From Lama guanicoe (lineage: Eukaryota): a stretch of 41,225 nt of DNA. The stretch is taken from positions 31,119 through 72,343 of the forward strand of contig MU053760.1 in assembly GCA_013239625.1 (NCBI GenBank), in the 5' to 3' direction. A program made the translations under genes and the position numbers. How positions within the stretch are numbered: position 1 is the first letter of the stretch; the number at the start of each line of letters is the position of its first letter. Shown here one piece after another: positions 6,801 through 39,215 of this stretch. Below the pieces are notes generated by a model. That model did no database searches and was not told where the DNA came from. It saw only the letters and a program-made list of their open reading frames with translations.

Positions 6801-9800
6801 GCAGACACAGGGAGTATGTAGGCCCAGGAGACGGCAGGCCCAGGGGTGTACAGGACCAGGGGTGTGCCGGCACAGCTTCGAGTAGGCCCAGGAGTGTGCA
6901 GGACCAGAAGAGTGCAGGCCCAGTAGTGTGCAGGCCCAGGAGTCTGTAGGCCCAGGAGTGTGCAGACAAAGTAGAGGGCAGGATCAGGGATGTACAGGCC
7001 CAGGAAAGGACAGGCCCAGGAGTGTGCAGGCCTTGGATTGTGCTGGCACAGGAGGGAGCAGGCCCAGTTGTGTTCAGGCACAGTAGGGCGCAGGCCCAGG
7101 ATTGGGCAGGACCAGGATTGTACAGATACAGGGGAGGTGAGGTCCAGGAGGGTGCAGGGCCAGAAATGTGCAGACACAGGAGTGTGCTGTCCCAGGTGTG
7201 TGCAGGCCCAGTTGTGTGCATTCCCAGGGGTGTGGAGACACAAGAGGGAGCAGGCCCAGGATTGTGCAGTCCCAGGTGTGTGCACGCCTATGAGTGTGCA
7301 GACACAGGAGGTAGCAGACACAGGTGTGTCCATGCCAAGGGGTGTGCAGGCCCAGGAGTGTTCAGGCCCAGGAGTGTGCAGTCCCAGGTGTGTGCATGCC
7401 CAAGGTTGTGCAGACACAGGAGGTTGCAAGCACAGTGGTATGCTGGCCCAGGAGTGTGCAGGCACAGGAATGTGCATGCCTAGGAGTGTGCAGGCCCAGG
7501 AGAGGGCTGGCCCCGGTGTGTGCAGGCCCGGAGAGGGCAGGCCCAGTAGTGTGCAGGCCAAGGAGTATGCAGGCAAAGGAGGGAGCAGGCCCAGGAGTGT
7601 ACAAGCGAAGCTGTGTGCTGGCATAGGAGGGAGAAGTCCCAGGAGTGTGCTGGCCCAGGTGTGCGCAGTATCAGAAGTGTGCAGGCCCCGGAGTGTGCAG
7701 ACACAGGAGTGTGCAGGCCCAGGAGAATGCACACACAGGATTGTGCAGGCCCAATCATGTGCAGGCCTAGAAGAGGGCCGGCCGAAGTAGGTGCAGGCCC
7801 AGGTGAGAGCCAGTCCAGGAGTGTGCAGGCCCAGGAGTCTGCAGTCCCAGGATTGTAAAGGCACAGGTGGGAGCAGGCACAAGATGGAGCAGGCACAGGA
7901 GTGTGAAGAATCAGGAGTGTGCAGGCCCAGGAGAGTGGAGGCCCAGAAGTGTCAGACACAGGAGTGTGCAGGCCCAGGGGTATGCAGACACAGGTGGGTG
8001 CAGTCCGAAGCCTGTGCAGGCACAGGAGGAAGCAGAATCAGGAGTGTGGAGGACCTGTGTTGTGCAGGCACAGGAGGGAGAAGGCCTAGGTGTGTGCAGG
8101 AACAGTAGGGAGCAGGGACAGTAGGGTTCAGGCCCAGGAGTGTGGAGGCCCAATGGTGGGCAGACACAAGGTTGTGCAGGCCTAAGTGATGGCAGGCCCA
8201 GGTGTGTGCAGTTCCAGGAGAGGACAGTCCCAGGAGTGTGCATACCCAGGTGTGTGCAGGCCCAGGAGTGTGGAGGCACAGGAGGGAGCAGGCCCAGGAA
8301 TGTGCAGGCCCATGTGTGTGCATACACAGGAGGGTTTAGGCCCAGGATAGGGTAAGTCCATTATTGTGAAGGCTCAGGCGAGGGCAGGCCCAGGAGAGGG
8401 TGGGACCAGGAGAGGACTGTGCCAGGTGTGTGCAGGCCCAGGAAATGGCAGGCCCAGTAGTGTGCAGGCCCAGAAGTGTGCAGGCCAAGGTGTGTCCAGG
8501 CCCAGCAGTGCGCAGGCATAGGAGAGGGCAAGCCCAGGAGTGTGCAGACCCAAGTGTGTGCAGAAATCTGAGTGTTCAGGCCCAAAAGAGGGCAGACCCA
8601 GGAGTGTGCCGACAAAGGAGAGGGCAGGAATTTTGAGGGCCGGCCAATGAGAAGGCTGGTTCAGCAGTGTGCAGATACAGGAGTGTGAAGACCCAGGAGT
8701 TTGCAGGCCCAGGAGTGTGCAGACAAAGGGAGGGCAGGAATGTTGAGGGCCTGCCAAGGAGAGGGCTTGTCTTGGAGTGTGCAGGCACAGGAGTGTGAAG
8801 ACCCAGGAGAGAGTAGGCACAGGAGTGTGAATGCCCAGGTGTGTGCAGGCCCAGGAGTGTGCAGGCACAGAATGGAGCAGGCCTTTGTGTGTGCATTCCC
8901 AGTTGTTGCAGCCCAGGAGAGGACAGGCCCTGGAATGTGCAGGCCCAGGAGTGTGCAGACACATGAGTGTGCAGGCCCAGGAGAGGGCATGTCGAATTGA
9001 AGTCAGGTCCAGGAATGTGCAGGCCCAGGATTGTTCAGGCCCAGGAGTGTGCAGACACAGGATAGTGCGATCCCAGTAGCGTGCTAGCCAAGGGGTGTGC
9101 AGGCCCAGGAGAGAGCAGGCCCAGGATTGTGCAGGACCAATAGAGGGCAGACCCAGGAGTGTGCCAAAACAGAAGGGAGCAAGCCCAGATATGTGTAGAC
9201 CCAGGAGTGTGCAGACATAGTAGGGATCAGGCCAAGGAATGTGCAGTCCCAGGAGAGATAATGCCCAGGTGTGTGCAGGCCCAGGAGTATTCAGGCCAAA
9301 TAGTATGCAGGAACAGGATTGTGCAGGATCAGGAGTGTGCAGTCCCAGGAGTCTGCAGGCACAGGAGGGAGCTGGCCCAGGAGTGTGCAGGCCCTGGAGG
9401 GTGCAGACACAGGAGTTGCAGGACCACGTGTTTGCATGCACAGTAGGGAGCAGGCCCAGGAGTGTGCAGGCCCAGGAGCTTGCAGACACAGCAGATGGTA
9501 GGCCCAAGAGTGTACAGGCCCAAGTGTGTGCAGATCCAGAGGTGTGAAGATACAGAATGTAGCAGGCCCAGGACTGTGCATGCCCAGGAGTGTGCAGGCC
9601 CAGGAATATGCAGACACAAGAGTGTACAGACACAGGAGGGAGAAGGCCCCGGAATGTGAAGGACCAAGCGTGTGCATGCAAAGAGTGTGCAGACACAGTA
9701 GCGGGCAGGCCCAGGAGTGTGCAGGCCCAGGAGAGTCCAGACTCAGGAGTGTGCAGGCACAGGAGGGAGCAGTCCCAGGGGTGTGCAGGAACAGGAGAGA

Positions 9801-12800
9801 ACAGGCCCAGGAGTGTACAGACACACGAGGGAGCAGGACTAGAAGTGTGCAGGCCCAGGAGTGTGCAGGCCCTGTGGTGTTCAGACACAGGAGAGAATAG
9901 GCACAGGATTGTGCATGCCCAGAAATGTGCAGGCCCTGAATTGGGCAGGCCCAAGAGTGTGCAGGCCCAGGAGTGTGCATGCCCATGAGTGTGCAGGAAC
10001 AGGGGGAAGCAGGCCCAGGAGTGTGCAGGCCCAGGAGTGTGCAAGCCCAGGAGAGTACCGTCTGAAGTAGGAGCAGGCCCAGGTGTGGGCAGGTCCATGT
10101 ATGTGGAGCCCCAGAAGTGGGCAGCCCCAGGAGTGTGCAGGCCCAGGGATCGGCAGGCCCAGGAGAGTTCAAACCCAGGAGATTTCAGGCCCAGGAGAGT
10201 CCAAACCCAGGAGTGTGCAGGCCCAGGGGTGTGCAGGCCCTGGAGTGTGCATATACAGGAGGGAGGAGGACCAGAATTATGCAGGCCGATTAGTGTGCAG
10301 GGGCAGGGGAGTGCAGGTCCAGGAGTGTGCAGGCCTAGTAGTGTGCAGGCCCAGGTGTGTGCAGATACAAGAGGGAACAGGCACAGGAGAGTGCAGGCCA
10401 AGGAGAGGGCAGGCCCAGGGGAGGGCAGGCCCAGTAGTATGCAGGCCTAGGAGTGTGCAGACACAAGATAGTATGATCGCAGGAGCGGGCTAGCCCAGGG
10501 TTGTGCAGGCCAAGGAGTGTTCCAAAACAGGAGGGAGCAGGCCCAGATGTGTGCAGGCCTAGGAGTGTGCAGACAAAGGACGGAGCAGGCCCAGGAATGT
10601 GCAGGATGTGGTGTGTGCAGGCCCAGGAGTGTGAAGACATAGGAGGGATCAGGCCCAGGGGTGAGCAGGCCCAGGATTGTGCATTCCCAGGAGTGTGCAG
10701 ACACAGGAGGGAGCAGGCACAGGAGTGTGCAGGCCCAGGAGAGGGCAGGCCCAGCAGTGTGCAGGCGCAGGAGGGAGCAGGCACAGGAGAAGTCAGGATC
10801 AGGTGTGTGCTGTCCAAGGAGAGGGAAGGCCCAGGAGTATTCAGGCCAAGGGGTGTGCAGGCACAGGATTGTGCAGGATCAGGAGTGTGCAGGCCCAGGA
10901 GTCTGCAGGCACAGGAGGGAGCAGCCCCAAGCATGTGCAGGCCCAAGAGTGTGCATTGCCAGGGTTGTGCTGACACAGGAGGGTTCAGGCCCCGGAGAGG
11001 GCTGGCCGAATTGGAGGAAGGTGCATGAGAAGGCAGGTCCAGGAGTATGCAGGTCCAGGAGTATGCAGACAAGTAGTGTGCTGGCCCAGGGGAGGGCAGG
11101 CCAAGGATTGTGCAGGCCCAGGAGAGGGCAGTCCCAGGAGAATCTAGACCCAGGAGTGTGCAGGCACAGGAATATGCAGGCAAAGAGGGAGTAGTCCCAG
11201 GTGTGTACAGGCCCAGGGGTATCTAGGCCCAGGTGTGTGCAGGCCCAGCAGTGTGCAGGCCCAGGAGTGTGCAGGCCCAGGAGTGTGCAGGCCCAGGAGT
11301 GTGCAGACACAAGAGTATGCAGGCCCAGGATTGTGCAGGACCTGGAGAGTGCAGACACAAGAGTGTGCAGTCCAAGGAGTGTTCAGGACCAGGAGTGTGC
11401 AGACACAAGTTATTGCGATCCCAGGAGCGGTTTAGCCCAGGGGTTTGCAGGCCCATGTGTGTTCCAAAACAGGAGGTAGCATGCCCAGATGTGTCCAGGC
11501 CCAGAAGTGGGCAGACACAGGACGGAGCAGGCCCAGGAATATGCTGGATGTGTTGTGTGCAGGCCCAGGAGTGTGCAGACATAGGAGGGATCAGGCCCAG
11601 GAGTGAGCAGGCCCAAGGGTGTGCAGTGCCAGGAGTAGGCAGACACAGGAGTGAGCAGGCCAGGAGTGTGCAGGCCCAGGAGGGTGTAGGCCCAGGTTTG
11701 TGCAGATGCAGAAGTGTGCAGACACATCAGTGTGCAAGCCTAGGTGTGTGCAGAGAATTGTGCAGGCCCAAGTGTGTGTCACACAGGAGAGGGCAGGACA
11801 GGTGAGGGCAGGCCCAGGAGTGTGCAGGCTCAGGAGTGTGCAGGCCCAGAATGTAGGAGGCCCAGGGCTGTGCAGGCCCAGGGGTGTGCAGGCCCGGGTG
11901 TGTGCAGACACAGGCAGTTGTGTGCAGGGCCACGATTGTGTAGTCCCAGAAATGTTCAGGCCCAGGATTTGACAGACACAGGAGTGTGCAGGCACAAAGA
12001 GTGTACAGGCCCTGGAGTGTGCAGGACCAGGGGATGGTAGGCCCATTAATGAGCAAGCCCAGGAGTGTGTAGTCCCAGGTGTGTGCAGACACAGGTGTGT
12101 GCAGGCCCAGGAGTGTGCAGACACAGGTGTGTACAGACACAGGTGTGTGCAGCCTCAGGGGTTTTCAGGTCCATGAGTGTGCAGTCACAGCAGTATGTAG
12201 GCCCAGGAATGTGCAGGCTCAGAAGTGTGCTGGCCCTGGAGAAGACAGGCCAATGTGTGTGCAGGCACAGGGGTGTGCAGTCTCAGGAGTGTGCAGGCAC
12301 AGGAGGGGGCAGGCGCAGGATTGTGCAGGCCCAGAAGTGTACAGAAACAGTTGTGTTCAGGCCCAGGATTGTGCAGAAACTGGAGAGGGCAGGCCCAGTA
12401 TTGTTAAGGCCCAGGAGTGTGCAGACACAGGATAGTGCGATCCCAGGAGCGGGCTAGCCCAGTGTTGTGTAGGCCCAGGAGAGAGCAGGCTCAGGAGTGT
12501 GCAGGACCAGTAGAGGGTAGGCCCAGGCGTGTGCAGGGTCAGGAGTGTGCCGAAATAGTGGGGAGCAGGCCCAGATGTGTGCAGGCCCAGGAGTGTGCAG
12601 ACACAGGACAGAGAAGGCCCAGGAATGTGCAAGTCCAGGAGTGTGCAGGCCCAGGAGTGAGCAGTCCCAGGATTGTGCAGACCCAGGTGTGTGCAGATCC
12701 ATGAGATGGCCGGCCGAATTGGGGGAGGGCCCAGGAGAGTGCAGGCCCAGGTGTGTGCAGGCCCAGGAGTGTGCAGGCATAGGAGGGAACAGGCACAAGT

Positions 12801-13093
12801 GTGTGCAGGCCCAAGGGTATGGAGGCCCAGGAAGATGTAGGACCAGGTGTGTGCAGGCTCAGGAGTGTGCAGGCCCAGGAATGTGCAGACACAGGAGTGT
12901 ACAAGCCCAGGAGAGAGCAGACACAGGAGTGTGAAGGCCCAGGTGTGTGCAGTCCCAGGAGTGTGCATACCGAGGATTGTGCAGACGCAGGAGTGTGCAG
13001 TCCCTGGGAGGGCAGGCCCAGCAGTATGCAGGCCAAGGGGAGGGCAGGCCCAGGAGTGTGCAGGCCCAGGAGTGTTTAGGCCCAGGATTGTGC
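873..13093 (+). repeat. 16-bp GC-rich satellite, left arm, degenerate, G-rich strand on + (consensus GGCCCAGGAGTGTGCA)
   Basis: Continuous ~16-nt periodicity of CAGGCCCAGGAGTGTG with recurrent variants (GACACAGGAGTGTGCA, GGCACAGGAGGGAGCA, GGCCCAGGAGAGGGCA). About 760 monomers by length/16. Confidence 0.97.
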
Positions 13094-13110
13094 TTCCACT
13101 TGTGCCTGTA
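13081..13110. other. Orientation-switch (inversion) junction within the 16-bp satellite
   Basis: CCCAGGATTG-TGC-TTCCACTTGTGCCTG: the forward monomer ends in TGC (13091-13093). The same TGC starts a reverse monomer resembling TGCTCCCTCCTGTGCCTG. No spacer. Confidence 0.93.
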
Positions 13111-16100: not shown

Positions 16101-18391
16101 TGGGCCTGCACACTCCTGGGCCTGCACACTCCTGGGCTTGCACACTCCTGTACCTGCTCCCTCCTGTGAATGCATACTCCTGGGACTTCAAACTCCTGGT
16201 ACTGCACACCCATGGGCCTGCACAATCCTCAGCCTGCTCCCACCTGGGCCTGCACATTCCTGGGCCTACACACTACTGGGTCTGCTCCCTCCTTTGCCTG
16301 ACCACACCTGGGCCTGCACAGTACTGGGACTGACCTCTGCTGGGCGTGCACGGTCCTGGGCCTTCACAAAACTGGGTCTGCTCCCTCCTGTGACTGTCAT
16401 CTCCTGGGCCTGCACACACCTGGGAATGCACACTTCTGGGCCTGCCCTCTGCAGGGCGCGAACGGTCCTGGGCCTGCATATTCCTGGGTCTGCTCCCTGC
16501 TGTGCATGCACACACCTATGCCTGCCGTCTCCTGGGGCCGCACACTCTTGGGCCTACACACACCTGGGCCTGCTCCCTCCTGTTCCTGCACACTCCTGGG
16601 TCTGCTCCCTCTTGTGCCTGCACACTCCTGGGCCTGCACACACTTGGGCCTGCCCTCTGCTGGGCGTGCACAGTCCTGGGATTCCCCATTCCTGCACTTG
16701 ATCACACATGGGCAAGACCTCTCATGGGCCTGCACATCCTGGGGCCTGCCATCACCTGGGTCTGCACAATCCTGGGCCTGCACATGCCTGGGCTAGCCCT
16801 GTTCTGGGCCTGCAAACTCCTGTTCTTGCCCTCTCCTGGGCATGCACACACGTGGGCCAGCCCAATCCTGGGCCTGCACAATCCTGGGTCTGCCCTCACA
16901 TGGGGCTGCATATTCCTGGGCCTACTCCCTCCTGTGACTGCACACTGCTGGATCTTCACTGTCATGTGTCTGCACACACCAAGGTCTGCAAAATCCTGGG
17001 CCTGAACTATCCTGTGCCTGCTCCCTCCTGTGTCTGCACAAGAGTGTGTCTGCACACTCCTGGGCCTGCACACTGCTGGGCCTGCCCGCTCCTGTGTCTG
17101 CACAATCTTTGCATGCACACGCTTGGTCCTTCACATTCATGGGCCTTCTCAATCCTGTGCTTGCATAATCCTGGGCCTGCCCTACCCTGGGCTGCTTACT
17201 CCTGTGTGTGCACACTCCTGGTCCTGCACACTACTGGGCCTGCCCTCTCATGCAACTTCCCCAATTCGACTGGTCCTCTCTTGGGCCGGTTCCGTCTTGT
17301 GTCTGCACACATCTGGTCCTGCTCCGTCCTTTTTCTGCACACTCCTGGGCCTGCACACTCCTGAGCCTCTTCCGTCTTGTGTCTTCACACTCATGGGCCT
17401 GCACACTCATGGGTCTGCCCTCCCCGGGCCTGCACTTATCTGGACCTGCTCGGCCATGTGTCTGCACACTCCTGGGCCTGTTCCGTCTTGTGTCTGCACA
17501 CCCATGGGCCTGCACACTCATGGGTCTGCCCTCTCCTGGGACTGCACACAAATGGTCATGCTCTGCCCTATGTCTGCACAATCCTGGCCCTACACATTCG
17601 TGTACCTGCACACACGTGGGCCTGCACAATCCTCTGTCTGCACACTCTATGTCGGTACACAACTGAGCCTCCATTCTCCAGGGCCTGCTCACCCCAGGGA
17701 CTGCACACACATAGGCCTGCACATTCCTGGGCCTGCACAATCCTGGGCCAGCACACACCTTGGCCTGCTCCCTCCTGTGTCTGCACACTTCTGGGCCTGC
17801 CATCTCCTGGGCCCACACACACCTCTGTCTGCACAATCCTGGACCTGCTCCCACATGTGTCGTCACACCCCTGGGACTGCACACTTCTGCGCCTGCACAC
17901 TCCTGGGAATGCACAAAACTGGGCCTGCCCTATCCTGTTTCTGCACACTCCTGGGCCTTCACACTACTGGACCTGCACACTAATCGGCCTACACTCTCCT
18001 TGGATTGCATACATGTGTGCCTGCTCCCTACTGTGTCTGAACACTCCTGTGTATGCACATTACTGGACATGCACACTTCTGTGCAGGCACAATCCTGGTC
18101 CTGCTCCCCACTGTGCTGTCACACTCTTGGGACTGCACACATGTGTGCATGTAGACTCCTTGGCCTACACACTCCTGGCCTTTCTCACTCATGTGCCTGC
18201 ACAGTACGGGGCTGAACACTCCTAAGCCTGCTCCCTAATGTGTCTGCACACTCTTGGGCTGGCACAATAGTAGGTCTACTCCCTCCTGTGCCTACACACA
18301 CCTGGGCCTGCACACCCCAGGACTTGTACAGTCCTGGGCCTGCCCTGGCCTGGGCTGGAACACTACTGGGCCTGCCCTCTCCTGGCCCTAG

Positions 18392-20486
18392 ACACTCCTG
18401 GGCCTGTACACTCCTGGGCCTGTACACTCCTGGGCCTGTACACTCCTGGGCCTGTACACTCCTGGGCCTGTACACTCCTGGGCCTGTACACTCCTGGGCC
18501 TGTACACTCCTGGGCCTGTACACTCCTGGGCCTGTACACTCCTGGGCCTGTACACTCCTGGGCCTGTACACTCCTGGGCCTGTACACTCCTGGGCCTGTA
18601 CACTCCTGGGCCTGTACACTCCTGGGCCTGTACACTCCTGGGCCTGTACACTCCTGGGCCTGTACACTCCTGGGCCTGTACACTCCTGGGCCTGTACACT
18701 CCTGGGCCTGTACACTCCTGGGCCTGTACACTCCTGGGCCTGTACACTCCTGGGCCTGTACACTCCTGGGCCTGTACACTCCTGGGCCTGTACACTCCTG
18801 GGCCTGTACACTCCTGGGCCTGTACACTCCTGGGCCTGTACACTCCTGGGCCTGTACACTCCTGGGCCTGTACACTCCTGGGCCTGTACACTCCTGGGCC
18901 TGTACACTCCTGGGCCTGTACACTCCTGGGCCTGTACACTCCTGGGCCTGTACACTCCTGGGCCTGTACACTCCTGGGCCTGTACACTCCTGGGCCTGTA
19001 CACTCCTGGGCCTGTACACTCCTGGGCCTGTACACTCCTGGGCCTGTACACTCCTGGGCCTGTACACTCCTGGGCCTGTACACTCCTGGGCCTGTACACT
19101 CCTGGGCCTGTACACTCCTGGGCCTGTACACTCCTGGGCCTGTACACTCCTGGGCCTGTACACTCCTGGGCCTGTACACTCCTGGGCCTGTACACTCCTG
19201 GGCCTGTACACTCCTGGGCCTGTACACTCCTGGGCCTGTACACTCCTGGGCCTGTACACTCCTGGGCCTGTACACTCCTGGGCCTGTACACTCCTGGGCC
19301 TGTACACTCCTGGGCCTGTACACTCCTGGGCCTGTACACTCCTGGGCCTGTACACTCCTGGGCCTGTACACTCCTGGGCCTGTACACTCCTGGGCCTGTA
19401 CACTCCTGGGCCTGTACACTCCTGGGCCTGTACACTCCTGGGCCTGTACACTCCTGGGCCTGTACACTCCTGGGCCTGTACACTCCTGGGCCTGTACACT
19501 CCTGGGCCTGTACACTCCTGGGCCTGTACACTCCTGGGCCTGTACACTCCTGGGCCTGTACACTCCTGGGCCTGTACACTCCTGGGCCTGTACACTCCTG
19601 GGCCTGTACACTCCTGGGCCTGTACACTCCTGGGCCTGTACACTCCTGGGCCTGTACACTCCTGGGCCTGTACACTCCTGGGCCTGTACACTCCTGGGCC
19701 TGTACACTCCTGGGCCTGTACACTCCTGGGCCTGTACACTCCTGGGCCTGTACACTCCTGGGCCTGTACACTCCTGGGCCTGTACACTCCTGGGCCTGTA
19801 CACTCCTGGGCCTGTACACTCCTGGGCCTGTACACTCCTGGGCCTGTACACTCCTGGGCCTGTACACTCCTGGGCCTGTACACTCCTGGGCCTGTACACT
19901 CCTGGGCCTGTACACTCCTGGGCCTGTACACTCCTGGGCCTGTACACTCCTGGGCCTGTACACTCCTGGGCCTGTACACTCCTGGGCCTGTACACTCCTG
20001 GGCCTGTACACTCCTGGGCCTGTACACTCCTGGGCCTGTACACTCCTGGGCCTGTACACTCCTGGGCCTGTACACTCCTGGGCCTGTACACTCCTGGGCC
20101 TGTACACTCCTGGGCCTGTACACTCCTGGGCCTGTACACTCCTGGGCCTGTACACTCCTGGGCCTGTACACTCCTGGGCCTGTACACTCCTGGGCCTGTA
20201 CACTCCTGGGCCTGTACACTCCTGGGCCTGTACACTCCTGGGCCTGTACACTCCTGGGCCTGTACACTCCTGGGCCTGTACACTCCTGGGCCTGTACACT
20301 CCTGGGCCTGTACACTCCTGGGCCTGTACACTCCTGGGCCTGTACACTCCTGGGCCTGTACACTCCTGGGCCTGTACACTCCTGGGCCTGTACACTCCTG
20401 GGCCTGTACACTCCTGGGCCTGTACACTCCTGGGCCTGTACACTCCTGGGCCTGTACACTCCTGGGCCTGTACACTCCTGGGCCTG
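18392..20486 (-). repeat. Perfect homogeneous tandem array (ACACTCCTGGGCCTGT), 130 full copies plus 15 nt
   Basis: First unit starts at 18392 and the last partial unit at 20472; (20472-18392)/16=130. No variant seen, and the ORF track gives uninterrupted 16-aa repeats on both strands. Confidence 0.98.
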
Positions 20487-20490
20487 CTCC

Positions 20491-23400
20491 CTCCTGTGTA
20501 TGCACATTACTGGACATGCACACTTCTGTGCTGGCACACTCCTGGGCCTGCTCCCCCCTGTGCCGTCACACTCCTTGGACTGCACACTTGTGCTCATGCA
20601 GACTCATTGGCCTACAGAATCCTGGCCCTTCTCCCTCCTGTGCATGCACAGTATGGACCTGAACACTCCTGAGCCTGCTCCCTACTGTGTCTGCAACTCC
20701 TGGGCTGGCATAAGAGTAGACCTACTCCCTCCTGTGCCTGCACACATCTGGGCCTGCACACCCCTGGACTTGTACAGTCCTGGGCCTTCCCTGGCCTGGG
20801 CCGTCACACTACTGGGCCTGTACACTCCTGGGCCTGCCCTCTCCTGTGTCTGCACACTCCTGGGCCTCTACACTCCTGGGCCTGCCCTCTCCTGGGCCTG
20901 CAGATGCCTGGGCATTTTCCGTCTTGTGTCTGCACACTCATGGGCCTGCACAAATCTGGTCTTGATCTGCCCTGTATCTGCGCTCTCCTGGGCCTGCACA
21001 TTCGTGCGCCTGCACAAGCATGGGCCTGCACACCCCTGTGTCTTCCCAATCCTGTGTCTGCTCACACCTGGGACTCCATCTCCAGGGCCTGCTCAATCCT
21101 GGGCCTGCTCCCTGCTGTGTCTGAACAATTCTGGGTCTGCCATCTCCTGGGCCCGCACACTAATCTGTATGCACAAGCCTGGACCTGCTCCCTCCTGTGC
21201 CGTCACACACCTGGGCCTGCACACTTCTGCACCTGCACACACCTGGGGATGCACTCTCCTGGGCATGCACACACCTGGGCCTGCTCCAGCCTGTGAGTCA
21301 ACACTCCTGGTCCTGCACACTACTGGACCTGCACACTCATCGGCCTGCACTCTCCTTGGAAAGCACAACTGTGTGCCTGCTCCCTAATGTGTCTGAAAAC
21401 TCCTGGGTCTGCACACTCTTGTGTCTGCAAATTCCTGGACCTGCACACTCCTGTGCCATCACTCTCCTGGGACTGCACACTTGTGTGCCTGCAGAATCCT
21501 TGGCCTACACACTCCTGGCTCTTCTCCCTCCTGTGCCTCACAATATGGACCTGAACACTCCTGAGCCTGCTTCCTATTGTGTCTGCACAATCCTGGGCTG
21601 GCACAATATTAGGCCTACTCCCTCCTGTGCCTGCACTCTCCTGGGCCTGCACACCCCTGGAATTGTATAGACCTGGGCCTGTCCTGGCCTAGGCCTGCAT
21701 GCTACTGGGCCTGCACCTTCCTTGGCCTGCCCACTCGTGTGTCTGCACACCCCTGGGCCTGTTCAATCCTGGAACTGAACACTTGGATATGACCTCCCCT
21801 GTGCCTACACATCTGGGACTGCACAATCCTGGGCCTGCACATTCGTGTGTCTGCACACTCCTGGGCATGCACACTCGTGTGTCTGCATGCTCTTGGGCCT
21901 GAACACTCCTGGGCCTTGACACTCCTGTGTCTGCACAATCCTGGGCCTGTTACCTCCTGAGCCAAGAAACCCCTGGTCATAACAGTCCTGGGCCAGCACA
22001 CTCCTGGGTCTTCCATCTCCTGGGCCTGTACACTCCTGGGCCTGCTCCCACCTGGGATGGCCCTCAACTGTCCTACTCTCTCCTAGGACTGCACACTCCT
22101 GGGACTGAACACTTCTGTGTCTGCATATACCTGGGCCTGCACAATCCAGGTATTAACTTCTCCTTGGACTGCCCTATTCTGGGCCTGCACACTACTGAGC
22201 CTGTACACTCCTGGGCCTGTACAATCCTGGGCCTGCCCTCTCCTAGTCCTGCGCACTCCTGGGCCTGCCCTCTCATGTGTCTGCACACTCCTGGGTCTGC
22301 CCTTTCCTGGGAAAGCCCTCACCTGTACTGCCTTCTCCTGGGTCTGCACACTCCTGGGCATGCACACTCCTGAGCCTGCCCTCTCCTGGGCCTAGACACC
22401 CCTGGGCCTGCACAGTCCTGAGCCAGCCCTCTACTGGGCCTAGACACACCTGGGACAGCACAGTCCTGGGCCTGTACACTCCTGGCCCTGCCCTCTCCAG
22501 GGCCTGTGCACTCCTGGGCCTGCCCTCTCCTGTGTCTGGACACTCCTGGGCCTGCCCTCTCTGGGAGAGCCCTCACCTGTACTGCCCTCTCCTGTACCTC
22601 CACACTCCTGGGCCTGCACAATCCTGGGTTGCCCTCTGCTGAGTGTGCATGTTCCTGGAACTCCCCATTCCTGCACTTGGACACCCTTGGGCAAGCCCTC
22701 TCCTGGGCTTGCACACTCTGGGGACTGCCCACACCTGGGTCTGCACACTCTTGGGCCTGCACACTGCTGGGCTTGACAGAACAGCCCCTGTCCACTCCTG
22801 AGTCTGCACACCCCTGGGACTGCACCCTCCTTTGCCTGGACACTCCTGGGCCTGCCCTACCCTGGGCTGCTTACTCCTGTGTTTGCACACTACTGGGCCT
22901 GGACACTACTGGGCCTGCCCTCATATGCACCTTCCCCCACTTCGAACGGCCCTCTCTTGGGCCTGTTCCATCTTGTGTCTGCACATATCTGGTCCTGTCC
23001 ATCCTTTTTCTGCACAATTCTGGGAATGCTCCCTTCTGTGCCTGCGTAGTCCTTGGCCTGCTCACTCCTGTATTTGCACAATCCTGGGCTGTACACTCCA
23101 GTGTCTGCACATTCCTCGGCCTGCCCTCTCTTTTTCCTCTCTGAACTCCCTTGGGCTTGCACACTCCTTGGCCTGCTCCCTCCTTTGCCTGCACTCTTCT
23201 GGACCTGCCTTCTCCTGGGCCTGCCCCCACATTGACATAGCCTCTTCTGAGCCGGCACTCACCTGCCCTGCCCTCTCCTGTCCCTTCACATTCCTTCACA
23301 TGCACAGAAGTGTGTCTGCACACTCCTAGGCCTGCACACACCTCGACCTGCACACACCTCACCCTGCACTCTCATGGGCATGCTCCCTCGTGGGCTTGAA

Positions 23401-26400
23401 CACTCCTGGACCTGCCCAGGCCTGGGCATGCCCCTACTTTGGACAGCCCTCTCCTGGGTCTGCACACTCCTGGGCCTGCACACTCCTGAGACTGCTCCCT
23501 CTTGATCCTGCAGTCTCATGGGAATGTACACTCCTGGTCCTGCACACTACTGGGCCTGCCCTCTCATGTACATTCCCCCACTTCGACTGGTCCTCCCTTG
23601 GGCCTGTTCCGTCTTGTGTCTGCACACATCTGGTCTTTCTCCATCATTTTTCTGCATAAACCTGGACCTGCACACTCCTGGGCCTGTTCCGTCTTTTGTC
23701 ATCACACACATGGTTCTGCACTGCCCTCTCCTGGGCCTGCACACAAATGGTCCTGCTCTGCCATGGGTCTGCACACTCCTGGGCCTGCACATTGCTGTGC
23801 ATGCACACACATTGGCCTGCACACTCCTTTGTCTGCAAACTCCTGTGTCTGAACACACCTGTGCCTCACTTCTCTAGGGCCTGCTCACTACTGGGACTGC
23901 ACACACATAGGACTGCACACTACTGGGCCTGTACAATCCTGGGACTGCACACAGCTGGGCCTGCTCCCTCCTTTATCTGCACACTTCTGGGCCCGCACAA
24001 TCCTGTGTCTGCACAATCATGGACCTGCTCCCTCCTGTGCCATCACACTCCTTGGACTGCACATTTCTGTGCCTGAACAATCCTGGGTCTGCACAATCCA
24101 GGGTCAAACTTCTCCTTTGCCAGCCCTCTTCTGGGCCTGCACACTCCTGAGCCTGCCCTCTCCTGGGACAGCCTTCACCTGTACTGACCACTCCAGTGCT
24201 TGCACACTCCTGGGCCTGCACACACCTGGGTTGCCTTCTGCTGGGTGTGCATGTCAGGGCCTGCCCGCTCCTGTGTCTGCACAATCTTTGCATGCACACG
24301 CTTGGTTCTTCACCTTCATGGGCCTTCTCCCTCCTTTGCCTGCACACTCCTGGGCCTGCCCTACCCTTGGCTGTTACTCCTGTGCATGCACACTCATGGT
24401 CCTGCACACTACTGGGCCTGCCCTCTCATGCAACTTCCCCAATTCGACTGGTCCTCTCTTGGGCTGGTTCCGTCTTGTGTCTGCACACATCTGGTCCTGC
24501 TCCGTCCTTTTTCTGCACACTCCTGGGCCTGCACACTCCTGAGCCTCTTCCGTCTTGTGTCTTCACACTCATGGGCCTGCCCTCCCCTGGGCCTGTACAC
24601 ATCTGGACCTGCTATGCCATGTGTCTGCACACTCCTGGGCCTGTTCCATCTTGTGTCTACACACTCATGGGACTGCACTCTCATGATTCTGCCCTCTCCT
24701 GGGACTGCACACAAATGGTCATGCTCTGCCCCGTGTATGCACAATCCTGGCCCTACACATTCGTGTACCTGCACACTCATGGGCCTGCACAATCCTGTGT
24801 CTGCACACACCTGGGACTCCCTTCTCCAGGGCCTGCTCAACTCTGGGACTGCACACATATAGGCCTGCACATTCCTGGGCCTGCACATTCCTGGGCCTGC
24901 ACACAACTGGACCTGCACACTCCTGGACCTGCACACTCCTGGGCTGCCCTCTCCTGGGCCTGCACTCTCCTTGGCCTGCACACTCCTGGGCCTGCACAAA
25001 ACTGGGCCTGCTCTATCCTGTTTCTTCACACTTCTGGGCCTGCACACAACTGGACATGCACACTCATCGGCCTACACTCTCCTTGGACTGCACACATGTG
25101 TGCCTGCTCCCTACTGTGCCTGAACACTCCTGAGTCTGAACACTCCTGTGTATGCACATTACTGGACATGCACACTTCTGTGCTGGCACACTCCTGGGCC
25201 TGCTCCCCCCTGTGCCGTCACACTCCTTGGACTGCACACTTGTGCTCATGCAGACTCATTGGCCTACAGAATCCTGGCCCTTCTCCCTCCTGTGCATGCA
25301 CAGTATGGACCTGAACACTCCTGAGCCTGCTCCCTACTGTGTCTGCAACTCCTGGGCTGGCATAAGAGTAGACCTACTCCCTCCTGTGCCTGCACACATC
25401 TGGGCCTGCACACCCCTGGACTTGTACAGTCCTGGGCCTTCCCTGGCCTGGGCCGTCACACTACTGGGCCTGTACACTCCTGGGCCTGCCCTCTCCTGTG
25501 TCTGCACACTCCTGGGCCTCTACACTCCTGGGCCTGCCCTCTCCTGGGCCTGCAGATGCCTGGGCATTTTCCGTCTTGTGTCTGCACACTCATGGGCCTG
25601 CACAAATCTGGTCTTGATCTGCCCTGTATCTGCGCTCTCCTGGGCCTGCACATTCGTGCGCCTGCACAAGCATGGGCCTGCACACCCCTGTGTCTTCCCA
25701 ATCCTGTGTCTGCTCACACCTGGGACTCCATCTCCAGGGCCTGCTCAATCCTGGGCCTGCTCCCTGCTGTGTCTGAACAATTCTGGGTCTGCCATCTCCT
25801 GGGCCCGCACACTAATCTGTATGCACAAGCCTGGACCTGCTCCCTCCTGTGCCGTCACACACCTGGGCCTGCACACTTCTGCACCTGCACACACCTGGGG
25901 ATGCACTCTCCTGGGCATGCACACACCTGGGCCTGCTCCAGCCTGTGAGTCAACACTCCTGGTCCTGCACACTACTGGACCTGCACACTCATCGGCCTGC
26001 ACTCTCCTTGGAAAGCACAACTGTGTGCCTGCTCCCTAATGTGTCTGAAAACTCCTGGGTCTGCACACTCTTGTGTCTGCAAATTCCTGGACCTGCACAC
26101 TCCTGTGCCATCACTCTCCTGGGACTGCACACTTGTGTGCCTGCAGAATCCTTGGCCTACACACTCCTGGCTCTTCTCCCTCCTGTGCCTCACAATATGG
26201 ACCTGAACACTCCTGAGCCTGCTTCCTATTGTGTCTGCACAATCCTGGGCTGGCACAATATTAGGCCTACTCCCTCCTGTGCCTGCACTCTCCTGGGCCT
26301 GCACACCCCTGGAATTGTATAGACCTGGGCCTGTCCTGGCCTAGGCCTGCATGCTACTGGGCCTGCACCTTCCTTGGCCTGCCCACTCGTGTGTCTGCAC

Positions 26401-28907
26401 ACCCCTGGGCCTGTTCAATCCTGGAACTGAACACTTGGATATGACCTCCCCTGTGCCTACACATCTGGGACTGCACAATCCTGGGCCTGCACATTCGTGT
26501 GTCTGCACACTCCTGGGCATGCACACTCGTGTGTCTGCATGCTCTTGGGCCTGAACACTCCTGGGCCTTGACACTCCTGTGTCTGCACAATCCTGGGCCT
26601 GTTACCTCCTGAGCCAAGAAACCCCTGGTCATAACAGTCCTGGGCCAGCACACTCCTGGGTCTTCCATCTCCTGGGCCTGTACACTCCTGGGCCTGCTCC
26701 CACCTGGGATGGCCCTCAACTGTCCTACTCTCTCCTAGGACTGCACACTCCTGGGACTGAACACTTCTGTGTCTGCATATACCTGGGCCTGCACAATCCA
26801 GGTATTAACTTCTCCTTGGACTGCCCTATTCTGGGCCTGCACACTACTGAGCCTGTACACTCCTGGGCCTGTACAATCCTGGGCCTGCCCTCTCCTAGTC
26901 CTGCGCACTCCTGGGCCTGCCCTCTCATGTGTCTGCACACTCCTGGGTCTGCCCTTTCCTGGGAAAGCCCTCACCTGTACTGCCTTCTCCTGGGTCTGCA
27001 CACTCCTGGGCATGCACACTCCTGAGCCTGCCCTCTCCTGGGCCTAGACACCCCTGGGCCTGCACAGTCCTGAGCCAGCCCTCTACTGGGCCTAGACACA
27101 CCTGGGACAGCACAGTCCTGGGCCTGTACACTCCTGGCCCTGCCCTCTCCAGGGCCTGTGCACTCCTGGGCCTGCCCTCTCCTGTGTCTGGACACTCCTG
27201 GGCCTGCCCTCTCTGGGAGAGCCCTCACCTGTACTGCCCTCTCCTGTACCTCCACACTCCTGGGCCTGCACAATCCTGGGTTGCCCTCTGCTGAGTGTGC
27301 ATGTTCCTGGAACTCCCCATTCCTGCACTTGGACACCCTTGGGCAAGCCCTCTCCTGGGCTTGCACACTCTGGGGACTGCCCACACCTGGGTCTGCACAC
27401 TCTTGGGCCTGCACACTGCTGGGCTTGACAGAACAGCCCCTGTCCACTCCTGAGTCTGCACACCCCTGGGACTGCACCCTCCTTTGCCTGGACACTCCTG
27501 GGCCTGCCCTACCCTGGGCTGCTTACTCCTGTGTTTGCACACTACTGGGCCTGGACACTACTGGGCCTGCCCTCATATGCACCTTCCCCCACTTCGAACG
27601 GCCCTCTCTTGGGCCTGTTCCATCTTGTGTCTGCACATATCTGGTCCTGTCCATCCTTTTTCTGCACAATTCTGGGAATGCTCCCTTCTGTGCCTGCGTA
27701 GTCCTTGGCCTGCTCACTCCTGTATTTGCACAATCCTGGGCTGTACACTCCAGTGTCTGCACATTCCTCGGCCTGCCCTCTCTTTTTCCTCTCTGAACTC
27801 CCTTGGGCTTGCACACTCCTTGGCCTGCTCCCTCCTTTGCCTGCACTCTTCTGGACCTGCCTTCTCCTGGGCCTGCCCCCACATTGACATAGCCTCTTCT
27901 GAGCCGGCACTCACCTGCCCTGCCCTCTCCTGTCCCTTCACATTCCTTCACATGCACAGAAGTGTGTCTGCACACTCCTAGGCCTGCACACACCTCGACC
28001 TGCACACACCTCACCCTGCACTCTCATGGGCATGCTCCCTCGTGGGCTTGAACACTCCTGGACCTGCCCAGGCCTGGGCATGCCCCTACTTTGGACAGCC
28101 CTCTCCTGGGTCTGCACACTCCTGGGCCTGCACACTCCTGAGACTGCTCCCTCTTGATCCTGCAGTCTCATGGGAATGTACACTCCTGGTCCTGCACACT
28201 ACTGGGCCTGCCCTCTCATGTACATTCCCCCACTTCGACTGGTCCTCCCTTGGGCCTGTTCCGTCTTGTGTCTGCACACATCTGGTCTTTCTCCATCATT
28301 TTTCTGCATAAACCTGGACCTGCACACTCCTGGGCCTGTTCCGTCTTTTGTCATCACACACATGGTTCTGCACTGCCCTCTCCTGGGCCTGCACACAAAT
28401 GGTCCTGCTCTGCCATGGGTCTGCACACTCCTGGGCCTGCACATTGCTGTGCATGCACACACATTGGCCTGCACACTCCTTTGTCTGCAAACTCCTGTGT
28501 CTGAACACACCTGTGCCTCACTTCTCTAGGGCCTGCTCACTACTGGGACTGCACACACATAGGACTGCACACTACTGGGCCTGTACAATCCTGGGACTGC
28601 ACACAGCTGGGCCTGCTCCCTCCTTTATCTGCACACTTCTGGGCCCGCACAATCCTGTGTCTGCACAATCATGGACCTGCTCCCTCCTGTGCCATCACAC
28701 TCCTTGGACTGCACATTTCTGTGCCTGAACAATCCTGGGTCTGCACAATCCAGGGTCAAACTTCTCCTTTGCCAGCCCTCTTCTGGGCCTGCACACTCCT
28801 GAGCCTGCCCTCTCCTGGGACAGCCTTCACCTGTACTGACCACTCCAGTGCTTGCACACTCCTGGGCCTGCACACACCTGGGTTGCCTTCTGCTGGGTGT
28901 GCATGTC
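20491..28907. repeat. Higher-order duplication, offset 4652 bp (20491-24255 matches 25143-28907)
   Basis: CTCCTGTGTATGCACATTACTGG occurs at 20491 and 25143. Identical ORF translations are offset by 4652 (20500/25152, 22832/27484, 23696/28348). The match ends after CTGGGTGTGCATGTC at 24255/28907. Confidence 0.95.
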
Positions 28908-31900
28908 CCTGGGACTCCACATTCCTGTGCTTGAACATCATTGGGCAAGCTCTCTCCTGAGCCTGAACACACTGGAGCCTGCCCTCAACTGGGTCTGCAT
29001 ACTCCTGGGCCTGCACACTACTGGGCCTGCACCGACCTGGGCCTGTACACCCCTGAGCCTGCACACCCCTGGAACTGCTCCCTCCTGTGCCTGCACACTC
29101 CTGGTCCTGCCCTACCCTGGGCTGCTTACTCCTGTGTCTGCACACTCCTGGGCCTGCACACTCCTGAGCCTCTTCCGTCTTGTGTCTTCACACTCATGGG
29201 CCTGCCCTCCCCTGGGCCTGTACACATCTGGACCTGCTATGCCATGTGTCTGCACACTCCTGGGCCTGTTCCATCTTGTGTCTACACACTCATGGGACTG
29301 CACTCTCATGATTCTGCCCTCTCCTGGGACTGCACACAAATGGTCATGCTCTGCCCCGTGTATGCACAATCCTGGCCCTACACATTCGTGTACCTGCACA
29401 CTCATGGGCCTGCACAATCCTGTGTCTGCACACACCTGGGACTCCCTTCTCCAGGGCCTGCTCAACTCTGGGACTGCACACATATAGGCCTGCACATTCC
29501 TGGGCCTGCACATTCCTGGGCCTGCACACAACTGGACCTGCACACTCCTGGACCTGCACACTCCTGGGCTGCCCTCTCCTGGGCCTGCACTCTCCTTGGC
29601 CTGCACACTCCTGGGCCTGCACAAAACTGGGCCTGCTCTATCCTGTTTCTTCACACTTCTGGGCCTGCACACAACTGGACATGCACACTCATCGGCCTAC
29701 ACTCTCCTTGGACTGCACACATGTGTGCCTGCTCCCTACTGTGCCTGAACACTCCTGAGTCTGAACACTCCTGTGTATGCACATTACTGGACATGCACAC
29801 TTCTGTGCTGGCACACTCCTGGGCCTGCTCCCCCCTGTGCCGTCACACTCCTTGGACTGCACACTTGTGCTCATGCAGACTCATTGGCCTACAGAATCCT
29901 GGCCCTTCTCCCTCCTGTGCATGCACAGTATGGACCTGAACACTCCTGAGCCTGCTCCCTACTGTGTCTGCAACTCCTGGGCTGGCATAAGAGTAGACCT
30001 ACTCCCTCCTGTGCCTGCACACATCTGGGCCTGCACACCCCTGGACTTGTACAGTCCTGGGCCTTCCCTGGCCTGGGCCGTCACACTACTGGGCCTGTAC
30101 ACTCCTGGGCCTGCCCTCTCCTGTGTCTGCACACTCCTGGGCCTCTACACTCCTGGGCCTGCCCTCTCCTGGGCCTGCAGATGCCTGGGCATTTTCCGTC
30201 TTGTGTCTGCACACTCATGGGCCTGCACAAATCTGGTCTTGATCTGCCCTGTATCTGCGCTCTCCTGGGCCTGCACATTCGTGCGCCTGCACAAGCATGG
30301 GCCTGCACACCCCTGTGTCTTCCCAATCCTGTGTCTGCTCACACCTGGGACTCCATCTCCAGGGCCTGCTCAATCCTGGGCCTGCTCCCTGCTGTGTCTG
30401 AACAATTCTGGGTCTGCCATCTCCTGGGCCCGCACACTAATCTGTATGCACAAGCCTGGACCTGCTCCCTCCTGTGCCGTCACACACCTGGGCCTGCACA
30501 CTTCTGCACCTGCACACACCTGGGGATGCACTCTCCTGGGCATGCACACACCTGGGCCTGCTCCAGCCTGTGAGTCAACACTCCTGGTCCTGCACACTAC
30601 TGGACCTGCACACTCATCGGCCTGCACTCTCCTTGGAAAGCACAACTGTGTGCCTGCTCCCTAATGTGTCTGAAAACTCCTGGGTCTGCACACTCTTGTG
30701 TCTGCAAATTCCTGGACCTGCACACTCCTGTGCCATCACTCTCCTGGGACTGCACACTTGTGTGCCTGCAGAATCCTTGGCCTACACACTCCTGGCTCTT
30801 CTCCCTCCTGTGCCTCACAATATGGACCTGAACACTCCTGAGCCTGCTTCCTATTGTGTCTGCACAATCCTGGGCTGGCACAATATTAGGCCTACTCCCT
30901 CCTGTGCCTGCACTCTCCTGGGCCTGCACACCCCTGGAATTGTATAGACCTGGGCCTGTCCTGGCCTAGGCCTGCATGCTACTGGGCCTGCACCTTCCTT
31001 GGCCTGCCCACTCGTGTGTCTGCACACCCCTGGGCCTGTTCAATCCTGGAACTGAACACTTGGATATGACCTCCCCTGTGCCTACACATCTGGGACTGCA
31101 CAATCCTGGGCCTGCACATTCGTGTGTCTGCACACTCCTGGGCATGCACACTCGTGTGTCTGCATGCTCTTGGGCCTGAACACTCCTGGGCCTTGACACT
31201 CCTGTGTCTGCACAATCCTGGGCCTGTTACCTCCTGAGCCAAGAAACCCCTGGTCATAACAGTCCTGGGCCAGCACACTCCTGGGTCTTCCATCTCCTGG
31301 GCCTGTACACTCCTGGGCCTGCTCCCACCTGGGATGGCCCTCAACTGTCCTACTCTCTCCTAGGACTGCACACTCCTGGGACTGAACACTTCTGTGTCTG
31401 CATATACCTGGGCCTGCACAATCCAGGTATTAACTTCTCCTTGGACTGCCCTATTCTGGGCCTGCACACTACTGAGCCTGTACACTCCTGGGCCTGTACA
31501 ATCCTGGGCCTGCCCTCTCCTAGTCCTGCGCACTCCTGGGCCTGCCCTCTCATGTGTCTGCACACTCCTGGGTCTGCCCTTTCCTGGGAAAGCCCTCACC
31601 TGTACTGCCTTCTCCTGGGTCTGCACACTCCTGGGCATGCACACTCCTGAGCCTGCCCTCTCCTGGGCCTAGACACCCCTGGGCCTGCACAGTCCTGAGC
31701 CAGCCCTCTACTGGGCCTAGACACACCTGGGACAGCACAGTCCTGGGCCTGTACACTCCTGGCCCTGCCCTCTCCAGGGCCTGTGCACTCCTGGGCCTGC
31801 CCTCTCCTGTGTCTGGACACTCCTGGGCCTGCCCTCTCTGGGAGAGCCCTCACCTGTACTGCCCTCTCCTGTACCTCCACACTCCTGGGCCTGCACAATC

Positions 31901-33780
31901 CTGGGTTGCCCTCTGCTGAGTGTGCATGTTCCTGGAACTCCCCATTCCTGCACTTGGACACCCTTGGGCAAGCCCTCTCCTGGGCTTGCACACTCTGGGG
32001 ACTGCCCACACCTGGGTCTGCACACTCTTGGGCCTGCACACTGCTGGGCTTGACAGAACAGCCCCTGTCCACTCCTGAGTCTGCACACCCCTGGGACTGC
32101 ACCCTCCTTTGCCTGGACACTCCTGGGCCTGCCCTACCCTGGGCTGCTTACTCCTGTGTTTGCACACTACTGGGCCTGGACACTACTGGGCCTGCCCTCA
32201 TATGCACCTTCCCCCACTTCGAACGGCCCTCTCTTGGGCCTGTTCCATCTTGTGTCTGCACATATCTGGTCCTGTCCATCCTTTTTCTGCACAATTCTGG
32301 GAATGCTCCCTTCTGTGCCTGCGTAGTCCTTGGCCTGCTCACTCCTGTATTTGCACAATCCTGGGCTGTACACTCCAGTGTCTGCACATTCCTCGGCCTG
32401 CCCTCTCTTTTTCCTCTCTGAACTCCCTTGGGCTTGCACACTCCTTGGCCTGCTCCCTCCTTTGCCTGCACTCTTCTGGACCTGCCTTCTCCTGGGCCTG
32501 CCCCCACATTGACATAGCCTCTTCTGAGCCGGCACTCACCTGCCCTGCCCTCTCCTGTCCCTTCACATTCCTTCACATGCACAGAAGTGTGTCTGCACAC
32601 TCCTAGGCCTGCACACACCTCGACCTGCACACACCTCACCCTGCACTCTCATGGGCATGCTCCCTCGTGGGCTTGAACACTCCTGGACCTGCCCAGGCCT
32701 GGGCATGCCCCTACTTTGGACAGCCCTCTCCTGGGTCTGCACACTCCTGGGCCTGCACACTCCTGAGACTGCTCCCTCTTGATCCTGCAGTCTCATGGGA
32801 ATGTACACTCCTGGTCCTGCACACTACTGGGCCTGCCCTCTCATGTACATTCCCCCACTTCGACTGGTCCTCCCTTGGGCCTGTTCCGTCTTGTGTCTGC
32901 ACACATCTGGTCTTTCTCCATCATTTTTCTGCATAAACCTGGACCTGCACACTCCTGGGCCTGTTCCGTCTTTTGTCATCACACACATGGTTCTGCACTG
33001 CCCTCTCCTGGGCCTGCACACAAATGGTCCTGCTCTGCCATGGGTCTGCACACTCCTGGGCCTGCACATTGCTGTGCATGCACACACATTGGCCTGCACA
33101 CTCCTTTGTCTGCAAACTCCTGTGTCTGAACACACCTGTGCCTCACTTCTCTAGGGCCTGCTCACTACTGGGACTGCACACACATAGGACTGCACACTAC
33201 TGGGCCTGTACAATCCTGGGACTGCACACAGCTGGGCCTGCTCCCTCCTTTATCTGCACACTTCTGGGCCCGCACAATCCTGTGTCTGCACAATCATGGA
33301 CCTGCTCCCTCCTGTGCCATCACACTCCTTGGACTGCACATTTCTGTGCCTGAACAATCCTGGGTCTGCACAATCCAGGGTCAAACTTCTCCTTTGCCAG
33401 CCCTCTTCTGGGCCTGCACACTCCTGAGCCTGCCCTCTCCTGGGACAGCCTTCACCTGTACTGACCACTCCAGTGCTTGCACACTCCTGGGCCTGCACAC
33501 ACCTGGGTTGCCTTCTGCTGGGTGTGCATGTCCCTGGGACTCCACATTCCTGTGCTTGAACATCATTGGGCAAGCTCTCTCCTGAGCCTGAACACACTGG
33601 AGCCTGCCCTCAACTGGGTCTGCATACTCCTGGGCCTGCACACTACTGGGCCTGCACCGACCTGGGCCTGTACACCCCTGAGCCTGCACACCCCTGGAAC
33701 TGCTCCCTCCTGTGCCTGCACACTCCTGGTCCTGCCCTACCCTGGGCTGCTTACTCCTGTGTCTGCACACTCCTGGGCCT
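24512..33780. repeat. Higher-order tandem duplication, period 4625 bp (24512-29155 matches 29137-33780)
   Basis: GAGCCTCTTCC occurs at 24541 and 29166. Identical ORFs are offset by 4625 (25152/29777, 27484/32109, 28625/33250). The match ends at 29155/33780. Confidence 0.95.
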
Positions 33781-37889: not shown

Positions 37890-38075
37890 AAAATAACAGC
37901 TGGCAATTTTTGAAGCCCTCAGAGCTCCTACCGCTAGATGGGACAGGTACTATTATCAGCAACCTCCTTTTCAAATGAAGAACAAGAGACATACAGAGTG
38001 GAAGGGACTTGCCCAAACTCACAGAGCTCATCGGTGGTGGAGGTAGGATTTAAACACACAGCCAGACTGGCACCA
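37890..38075 (-). mobile_element. MIR SINE fragment
   Basis: AGGTACTATTATC...TTTTCAAATGAAGAA...GACTTGCCCAAACTCACAGAGCT...GGATTTAAAC resembles the reverse-complement MIR core as recalled (not aligned computationally). Confidence 0.8.
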
Positions 38076-38999: not shown

Positions 39000-39215
39000 G
39001 AATAATAAGAAAATGCTGTCCATTGTACAGATTGCAGGATGCCTCCACATCCATTTCTGTCTTTGATCCTCGAAATAGCTCTGTATAGTGCTTAGGACAA
39101 ATATTGCTGCCATTTGCTGGTTCTAGAAACTGAAGCCCAGAGAGGGTAAGTGATCTCTCCAAGGTCACACAGCCATTTGTGGGTATACCTGGAAGCACTT
39201 TGAAGCTGGGTCCAG
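39000..39215 (-). mobile_element. MIR SINE fragment
   Basis: TTTGATCCTC...AGAAACTGAAGCCCAGAGAGGGTAAGTGATCTCTCCAAGGTCACACAGC matches the reverse-complement MIR core. Confidence 0.8.

What the first reader, a model, noticed from the sequence alone, without database searches (positions are those of the whole stretch)
18392..20486. 2.1-kb perfect expansion of a single minority monomer variant inside a degenerate array
Seen: ~131 identical copies of the TGTACA variant (consensus TGCACA), in an array where neighbouring monomers usually differ. The variant otherwise occurs as scattered copies (e.g. ~13538, 14208, 20819, 22026). Inference: a very recent burst (slippage, break-induced or rolling-circle synthesis) that regenerates a pure array from one unit. 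It may be satellite renewal caught in the act and is probably a hypervariable VNTR.
Basis: partly seen in the sequence, partly recalled or inferred. Interest (0 to 1): 0.7.

Follow-up and report, generated by a model that had tools for sequence, protein, structure and literature searches.

The report
Perfect repeat block at duplication junction
A 2.1-kb run of 131 identical 16-base repeats sits at the edge of a letter-perfect 4.6-kb triplication inside a camelid satellite array; three other animals appear to lack the triplication and the one that could be tested appears to lack the run, so it is slightly more likely an assembly error than a real, very recent mutation private to this animal.

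Summary
The block is in the record as described: 18392-20486, 130.9 perfect 16-mers, while the next longest perfect run is 57 bp and this variant is 7 of 1539 monomers. It is not a simple expansion in a continuous array. It sits on a junction: the right flank restarts about 350 bp back in an 89%-identical paralog and begins a zero-mismatch triplication (3765 bp x3; 4644 bp x2). The array lies beside the llama 248-bp repeat, so it is camelid, probably pericentromeric. In three other animals the left flank and the tripled segment are real but single-copy. In the one testable run, pure tandem words occur about 18 times, not 129. None of these runs looks like the source animal, so this excludes a common feature, not a private one. 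Verdict: assembly or gap-fill product about 0.5, real private template-switch event about 0.37, shared VNTR about 0.13. A hairpin explanation for this variant failed. The scan had not noted this block; it had noted other unverified perfect duplications in the same genome (unchecked leads). Long reads of the source animal decide it.

The parts
18392..20486 (+). Pure block: 130.9 periods of the 16-bp TGTACA variant, no mismatch or indel
18376..18391 (+). 16 bp just left of the block; exact letters not seen in other animals' contigs (possible patch); 1 mismatch in 25 from the motif at 14323
   Evidence: (X15 record 16 leaves the window at 18376; X1 bin depth explained by two other contigs); a hole proves nothing on its own
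20487..20490 (+). 4-bp patch between the block and segment c, completing a common monomer in register
17078..18374 (+). Older paralog a'b'c1' of 24257-25472 (95%, 91%, 89% identity by piece); 18055-18375 present at about single-copy depth in three other animals
20491..24255 (+). Segment c, first copy; identical to 25143-28907 and 29768-33532 (3765 bp, 0 mismatches)
24256..24511 (+). Segment a; the c|a junction has no homology and is 2 bases out of monomer register
24512..29155 (+). Unit b-c-d plus 19 bp, identical to 29137-33780 (4644 bp, 0 mismatches); junction in register with 19-bp homology
29137..33780 (+). Last copy of b-c-d; locus-specific contigs of c in three other animals have at most single-copy depth
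13104..35982 (+). Degenerate 16-bp GC-rich satellite, plus orientation (1434 periods in the record)
875..13093 (-). Same 16-bp satellite, opposite orientation (767 periods)
25..872 (-). 3.4 copies of a 249-bp satellite matching the Lama glama 248-bp candidate centromere repeat

Best explanation
The pure block and the identical 3.8-4.6-kb copies beside it are likely products of sequence assembly at one difficult spot in a real satellite array, not DNA of the animal. Shown: the flanking array is real, the block sits on a junction between two paralogs, and it abuts a zero-mismatch triplication that three other animals do not show. Inferred: the assembly broke near 18375; a gap-filling or repeat-graph walk would have looped on a short real TGTACA tandem (such tandems exist, about 18 per genome in X1) until it met segment c; segment c and unit b-c-d would have been written more than once and then read or polished to identity. 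A short real run of a few TGTACA units at this site is compatible with this reading; the length and purity are what would be false.
For: (1) Three separate zero-mismatch features (2095, 3765 and 4644 bp) touch or overlap within 15.4 kb, while no other exact direct repeat in the non-redundant array exceeds 115 bp. Independent mutations are unlikely, so one cause is needed. (2) No intermediates: 3.6 perfect periods at most elsewhere against 131 uninterrupted. (3) Individual contigs in segment c have depth 10-18 against 30-41 in the unique flank (X1), 25-29 against 37-44 (X15) and 81.5 against 104-126 (X5); tripling is seen in 0 of 3 (24 of 18,661 pieces were shown). (4) The X1 record covering two tandem TGTACA units has depth 670, about 18 copies; the block predicts about 4900 (homozygous), 2450 (heterozygous) or 1225 (one of four haplotypes). 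(5) Both ends carry short patches, and other animals' contigs appear to leave the window's path at about 18376. (6) The c|a junction breaks monomer register, whereas all 56 verified large indels in Arabidopsis centromeres kept it (10.1101/2025.06.02.657473, section 7). (7) Copies without distinguishing words are the homotype class of false duplication, and wrongly filled gaps between them are described (PMC9516828, passages).
Against: The window has no N. The unit is a minority variant, so simple collapse to consensus does not explain it. The block starts where the paralog has TACA-type monomers. The d|b junction is in register with 19 bp of homology, as real unequal exchange gives. None of the three contig runs looks like the source animal (unique flank differs by 0.25%, 0.85% and 0.7%; best word share 0.80), and zero divergence allows an age up to 70-180 thousand years (assumed rates), so absence elsewhere is also what a private allele predicts. 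Raw reads of X23 were too thin to exclude a heterozygous block (6 of 10 reads with T at 18439; 5-14 expected if heterozygous). Human genomes carry singleton simple-repeat expansions of 5-700 kb (PMC11305138, passages). Long-read satellite assemblies can be very accurate. The assembly method is unknown to me.
Confidence: 0.5

Rival explanations
1. A real, very recent, private complex rearrangement. One replication-based repair event (break-induced replication with template switching) would have slipped about 130 times on a TGTACA monomer at the end of the old paralog, switched to the start of segment c, and copied a-b-c and b-c-d again.
For: One event explains the clustering. A local seed exists in the paralog. 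Block junctions and d|b keep register. Complex tandem duplications made of mosaics of nearby units, 1-31 units long, are verified in Arabidopsis centromeres. RAD52- and PIF1-dependent array expansion is shown for human centromeres (PMC11034957, abstract). Singleton simple-repeat expansions exist in humans. Other animals' haplotypes are 0.25-0.85% diverged, so need not share it.
Against: No read support could be obtained. c|a is out of register. The array's own record shows old duplications (about 84-95% identity) and no exact repeat above 115 bp. The variant has no special folding advantage (rank 22 of 61).
Confidence: 0.37
2. A hypervariable minisatellite shared in the population: a TGTACA run of variable length at this site, the window holding a long allele.
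For: Tandem TGTACA words exist in X1 at about 18 copies per genome and could in principle all be one short allele here. X23 has 6 of 10 reads with T at 18439.
Against: No shown record joins the left flank to a pure run in X1, X15 or X5 (24 of 363 pieces shown). The listed loose ends at 18392 and 18438 in X23 are not pure repeat. It does not explain the triplication or the restart in a paralog.
Confidence: 0.13

Closest known systems
Homotype false duplications with wrongly filled gaps (Ko et al. 2022, PMC9516828; passages read)
   Same: Adjacent copies with no distinguishing words; odd sequence at the join; at most single-copy depth in other animals
   Different: Their diagnosis needs reads of the assembled animal (depth, depth gap, discordant pairs), which I lack; no open gap here; a pure monomer filler is not described in the passages I saw
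Tandem and complex tandem duplications in Arabidopsis CEN178 arrays (10.1101/2025.06.02.657473; abstract and sections 5 and 7 read)
   Same: Kilobase-scale identical copies of adjacent units, mosaic breakpoints, new hybrid monomers at junctions
   Different: All 56 kept periodicity, whereas c|a does not; largest gain was 31 units and no 130-fold single-unit run is reported in those sections; their array is homogeneous and active, this one is 79% identical to consensus
Rare or singleton simple-satellite expansions in humans (PMC11305138; passages read)
   Same: A unit under 20 bp expanded to kilobases in one or few individuals
   Different: Those were counted in raw reads; this one is known only from an assembly and is tied to a triplication
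Lama glama 248-bp candidate centromere repeat (Melters et al. 2013, PMC4053949; supplement passages)
   Same: Window 25-872 matches it on the minus strand (19-nt motif, 2 hits with 1 mismatch, 0 expected; the rest by eye)
   Different: It is the neighbour of the 16-bp array, not the finding; two 12-nt motifs of the 16-bp monomer had no hit in those supplements
Alpaca satellites VpaSat01-13 (PMC13751797; parts 1-3 of 8 and one supplementary file searched)
   Same: Camelid, GC-rich, near centromeres; the VpaSat05 forward primer resembles the monomer's reverse strand by eye
   Different: Units of 1.8-8.5 kb; '16 bp' is not mentioned; centromere-associated diffuse arrays were left out; that primer has no match within 3 mismatches here; their consensus sequences were not visible to me

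Membership tests
Hypervariable minisatellite (VNTR) | Head-to-tail unit of about 6-100 bp (definition recalled) | tested here: met
   16-bp unit, 130.9 periods
Hypervariable minisatellite (VNTR) | Several length alleles at the same locus between the same flanks | tested here: inconclusive
   X1 lacks a long allele; no short allele joined to the left flank was shown
Hypervariable minisatellite (VNTR) | Flanks collinear with an unexpanded copy | tested here: not met
   Right flank restarts about 350 bp back in a paralog
Homotype false duplication | No single-copy words that tell the copies apart | tested here: met
   0 mismatches over 3765 and 4644 bp; a very recent real duplication would also meet this
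Homotype false duplication | Low read depth over the copies in the assembled animal | not testable with these tools
   No run looks like the source; other animals show single-copy depth
Homotype false duplication | [quoted passage not shown] | tested here: inconclusive
   No N in the window; a filled gap needs source reads
Homotype false duplication | Discordant read pairs across the copies | not testable with these tools
   No source reads
Homology-directed satellite tandem duplication | Junctions keep monomer register | tested here: inconclusive
   Met at both block ends and d|b, not met at c|a, which may be an older junction
Homology-directed satellite tandem duplication | Gained sequence identical to, or a mosaic of, nearby units | tested here: met
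Homology-directed satellite tandem duplication | Confirmed in spanning reads or replicate assemblies | not testable with these tools
   No source reads; no own genome held
Structure-driven repeat expansion (hairpin-forming units) | Expanded unit folds unusually stably | tested here: not met
   Rank 22 of 61 variants; -28.1 against -24.4 kcal/mol for the consensus per 10 units, strongest -57.3

The most novel reading that the evidence does not exclude
The block is real: one replication-repair event in a decayed camelid pericentromeric satellite produced, together, a 131-fold pure run of a rare monomer and a 4.6-kb triplication. That would be a snapshot of a new homogeneous satellite and a new kilobase-scale higher-order unit both being born at one breakpoint, in a 16-bp family that I could not find described.
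Probability: 0.35. Interest if true: 0.55.

Novelty: not a real feature. Interest (0 to 1): 0.25.

Why it matters
If it is an assembly product, it is a warning: perfect blocks and zero-mismatch duplications in this assembly's satellites should not be read as evolution without reads. If real, it links two scales of satellite renewal (single-unit amplification and kilobase duplication) to one breakpoint and could be genotyped directly, though both processes are known separately. The label 'not a real feature' follows a narrow lean (about 0.5) and applies to the block; the surrounding 16-bp satellite is real, abundant and apparently uncatalogued.

Tried and rejected
Hairpin advantage of the palindromic TGTACA variant: rejected, rank 22 of 61. 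Collapse to consensus: rejected, since the unit is not the consensus. Left-junction pattern in metagenome contigs: 0 matches. Pure two-unit pattern: 0 in viral, metagenome and prokaryote genome contigs; uninformative for a mammal. Rfam: 0 hits. ORFs in the unique flank: 30 stop-to-stop frames of 70 aa or more, none followed up and no gene named. Joint and loose-end tables were cut to the best-supported rows (15 of 156 joints), all high-depth, so presence or absence of the c|a, d|b and block|c junctions in other animals could not be read. X23 raw reads were too shallow to decide. Five motifs of the two satellites gave 0 papers in full-text search; searches listed no paper on a camelid 16-bp satellite by title or abstract start. 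Earlier-findings look-ups near this place, by sequence, by words and in relatives returned nothing.

Full report
Observation. The window holds a perfect period-16 run at exactly 18392-20486: 2095 bp, 130.94 periods, 130 complete TGTACA monomers. The next longest perfect run is 57 bp. After removing duplicated copies, the array parses into 1539 monomers at 79% mean identity to consensus; the block variant occurs 7 times, the consensus 47 times, and 3 of 1535 neighbouring pairs are identical.

Setting. The window runs: 249-bp satellite (25-872), 16-bp satellite in minus orientation (875-13093), the same satellite in plus orientation (13104-35982), then unique DNA. The 249-bp unit matches the Lama glama 248-bp candidate centromere repeat in the supplement of PMC4053949 (passages; 19-nt motif found twice with one mismatch, none expected). 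I infer a camelid pericentromeric boundary. Earlier notes on this genome gave that lead. The 16-bp family is abundant genome-wide: summed contig depth reaches 52,000 in X1 against about 38 in the flank (a sum, not a copy number). I found no description of it: five motifs gave 0 papers, and the alpaca satellite catalogue PMC13751797 (parts 1-3 of 8, term search, one supplementary file) lists 1.8-8.5-kb units and set centromere-associated diffuse arrays aside. Its consensus sequences were not visible to me and could bear on this.

The block is not an insertion between collinear flanks. To its right, 20491-24255 (segment c) is identical to 25143-28907 and 29768-33532, and 24512-29155 is identical to 29137-33780, with no mismatch in 3765 and 4644 bp. 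To its left, 17078-18374 is an older paralog of 24257-25472 at 95%, 91% and 89% identity by piece. The order is a' b' c1' [block] c a b c d b c d e. The block ends four bases before the identical copy begins, and that copy restarts about 350 bp back in the paralog. The paralog has a TGTACA monomer at 25464 and a one-mismatch TACA monomer at 25512, at about the site where the block begins. The d|b junction keeps register with 19 bp of homology; c|a has no homology and loses two bases of register. Elsewhere in the array no exact direct repeat exceeds 115 bp. Zero divergence caps the age of the duplications at about 70-180 thousand years for assumed rates of 2.5e-9 to 1e-9 per site per year.

Other animals. 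Of 23 listed runs, 19 runs under six organism labels hold 0.69-0.80 of the words of 32000-41225. I laid four of them (X1, X15, X5 as contigs; X23 as raw reads). Their unique flank differs from the window at 11 of 4338, 43 of 5073 and 36 of 5037 shown bases, so none looks like the source. Individual contigs inside c have depth 10.2-17.7 (X1; flank 30-41), 25.3-29.4 (X15; 37-44) and 81.5 (X5; 104-126): c is real but tripled in 0 of 3 (24 of 18,661 pieces shown; the tool warns that contig depth is a rough measure). The left flank 18055-18355 is present at depth 31.9, 30.1 and 64.1. One X1 record spans two tandem TGTACA units with no difference at depth 670, about 18 copies; those words occur 129 times in the window and would give about 4900, 2450 or 1225 for two, one of two, or one of four haplotypes. 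No such record was shown for X15 or X5, so the block itself was testable in X1 only. An X15 record leaves the window's letters at 18376, and the X1 depth over 18368-18384 (42.2) is reproduced by two contigs that match only 18360-18380 (42.25), which suggests that the 16 bases before the block also differ in other animals; one mismatch with clipping, or filtered records, could give the same picture. X23 had 10 reads at 18439, 6 with T, against 28 or 14 expected at local depth and 10 or 5 at genome-average depth; this does not exclude a heterozygous block.

Mechanism. Shown: the junction anatomy, the real single-copy flanks, the absence of tripling in three animals and of the long run in one. 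Inferred: one cause for all three perfect features. An assembly cause (about 0.5) would be a gap-filling or repeat-graph loop on a short real tandem, with neighbouring segments written twice; homotype false duplications joined by wrongly filled gaps are described in PMC9516828 (passages). A real cause (about 0.37) would be one template-switching repair event; complex tandem duplications are verified in Arabidopsis centromeres, though all 56 large indels kept register (10.1101/2025.06.02.657473, sections 5 and 7), array expansion needs RAD52 and PIF1 in a human cell line (PMC11034957, abstract only), and singleton simple-repeat expansions of 5-700 kb occur in humans (PMC11305138, passages). Against the artefact: no N, a minority unit, a plausible local seed, and other animals too distant to be expected to share a young allele. 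A shared VNTR (about 0.13) lacks a second allele and does not explain the triplication. A folding advantage of the palindromic variant was tested and failed (rank 22 of 61). My odds before looking at earlier notes were 45/45/10. Those notes list several other unverified perfect duplications in this genome; I did not check them and do not count them as evidence, but they and the re-reading nudged me toward the artefact. The way gap fillers loop on tandem units is recalled knowledge, not a call result, and the assembly method is unknown.

Verdict. The block is accurately described but unverified as DNA; it belongs to a 15-kb cluster of zero-mismatch copies that is either an assembly error or a private recent rearrangement, both of known kinds. 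Interest 0.25; if real, about 0.55.

Noticed in passing
window 875-35982: A GC-rich 16-bp degenerate satellite, abundant genome-wide in three other animals, beside the 248-bp repeat; no description found in the searches made.
   Followed up: partly
window 13093-13104: The array flips orientation across a spacer of about 10 bp; the two arms share no exact inverted match much above 40 bp, so the inversion looks old.
   Followed up: partly
window 24255-24257: The c|a junction is out of register and coincides with the start of a'/a homology; it may be the breakpoint of an old tandem duplication whose diverged copy of c was overwritten in this record.
   Followed up: partly
window 26935, 27703, 28471 against 14226, 34569, 35810: Scattered 128-bp tiles at 89-91% identity show older multi-monomer duplications across the array.
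   Followed up: partly
window 2641-2750 and 3247-3356: 110-bp exact repeat 606 bp apart in the left arm, one of the two longest exact repeats outside the triplication.
   Followed up: no
window 36540-36830: CpG-rich, promoter-like stretch about 600 bp from the array's end, judged by eye; no gene identified.
   Followed up: no
window 35985-36130 and 37940-38080: An LTR-like and a MIR-like fragment, judged by eye and from recall; no tool confirmed either.
   Followed up: no
run X1, window 37233-40899: Allele depths split about 1:3 or 1:2 rather than 1:1, so X1 may be a mixed sample; this is why a one-in-four-haplotype expectation was also computed.
   Followed up: partly
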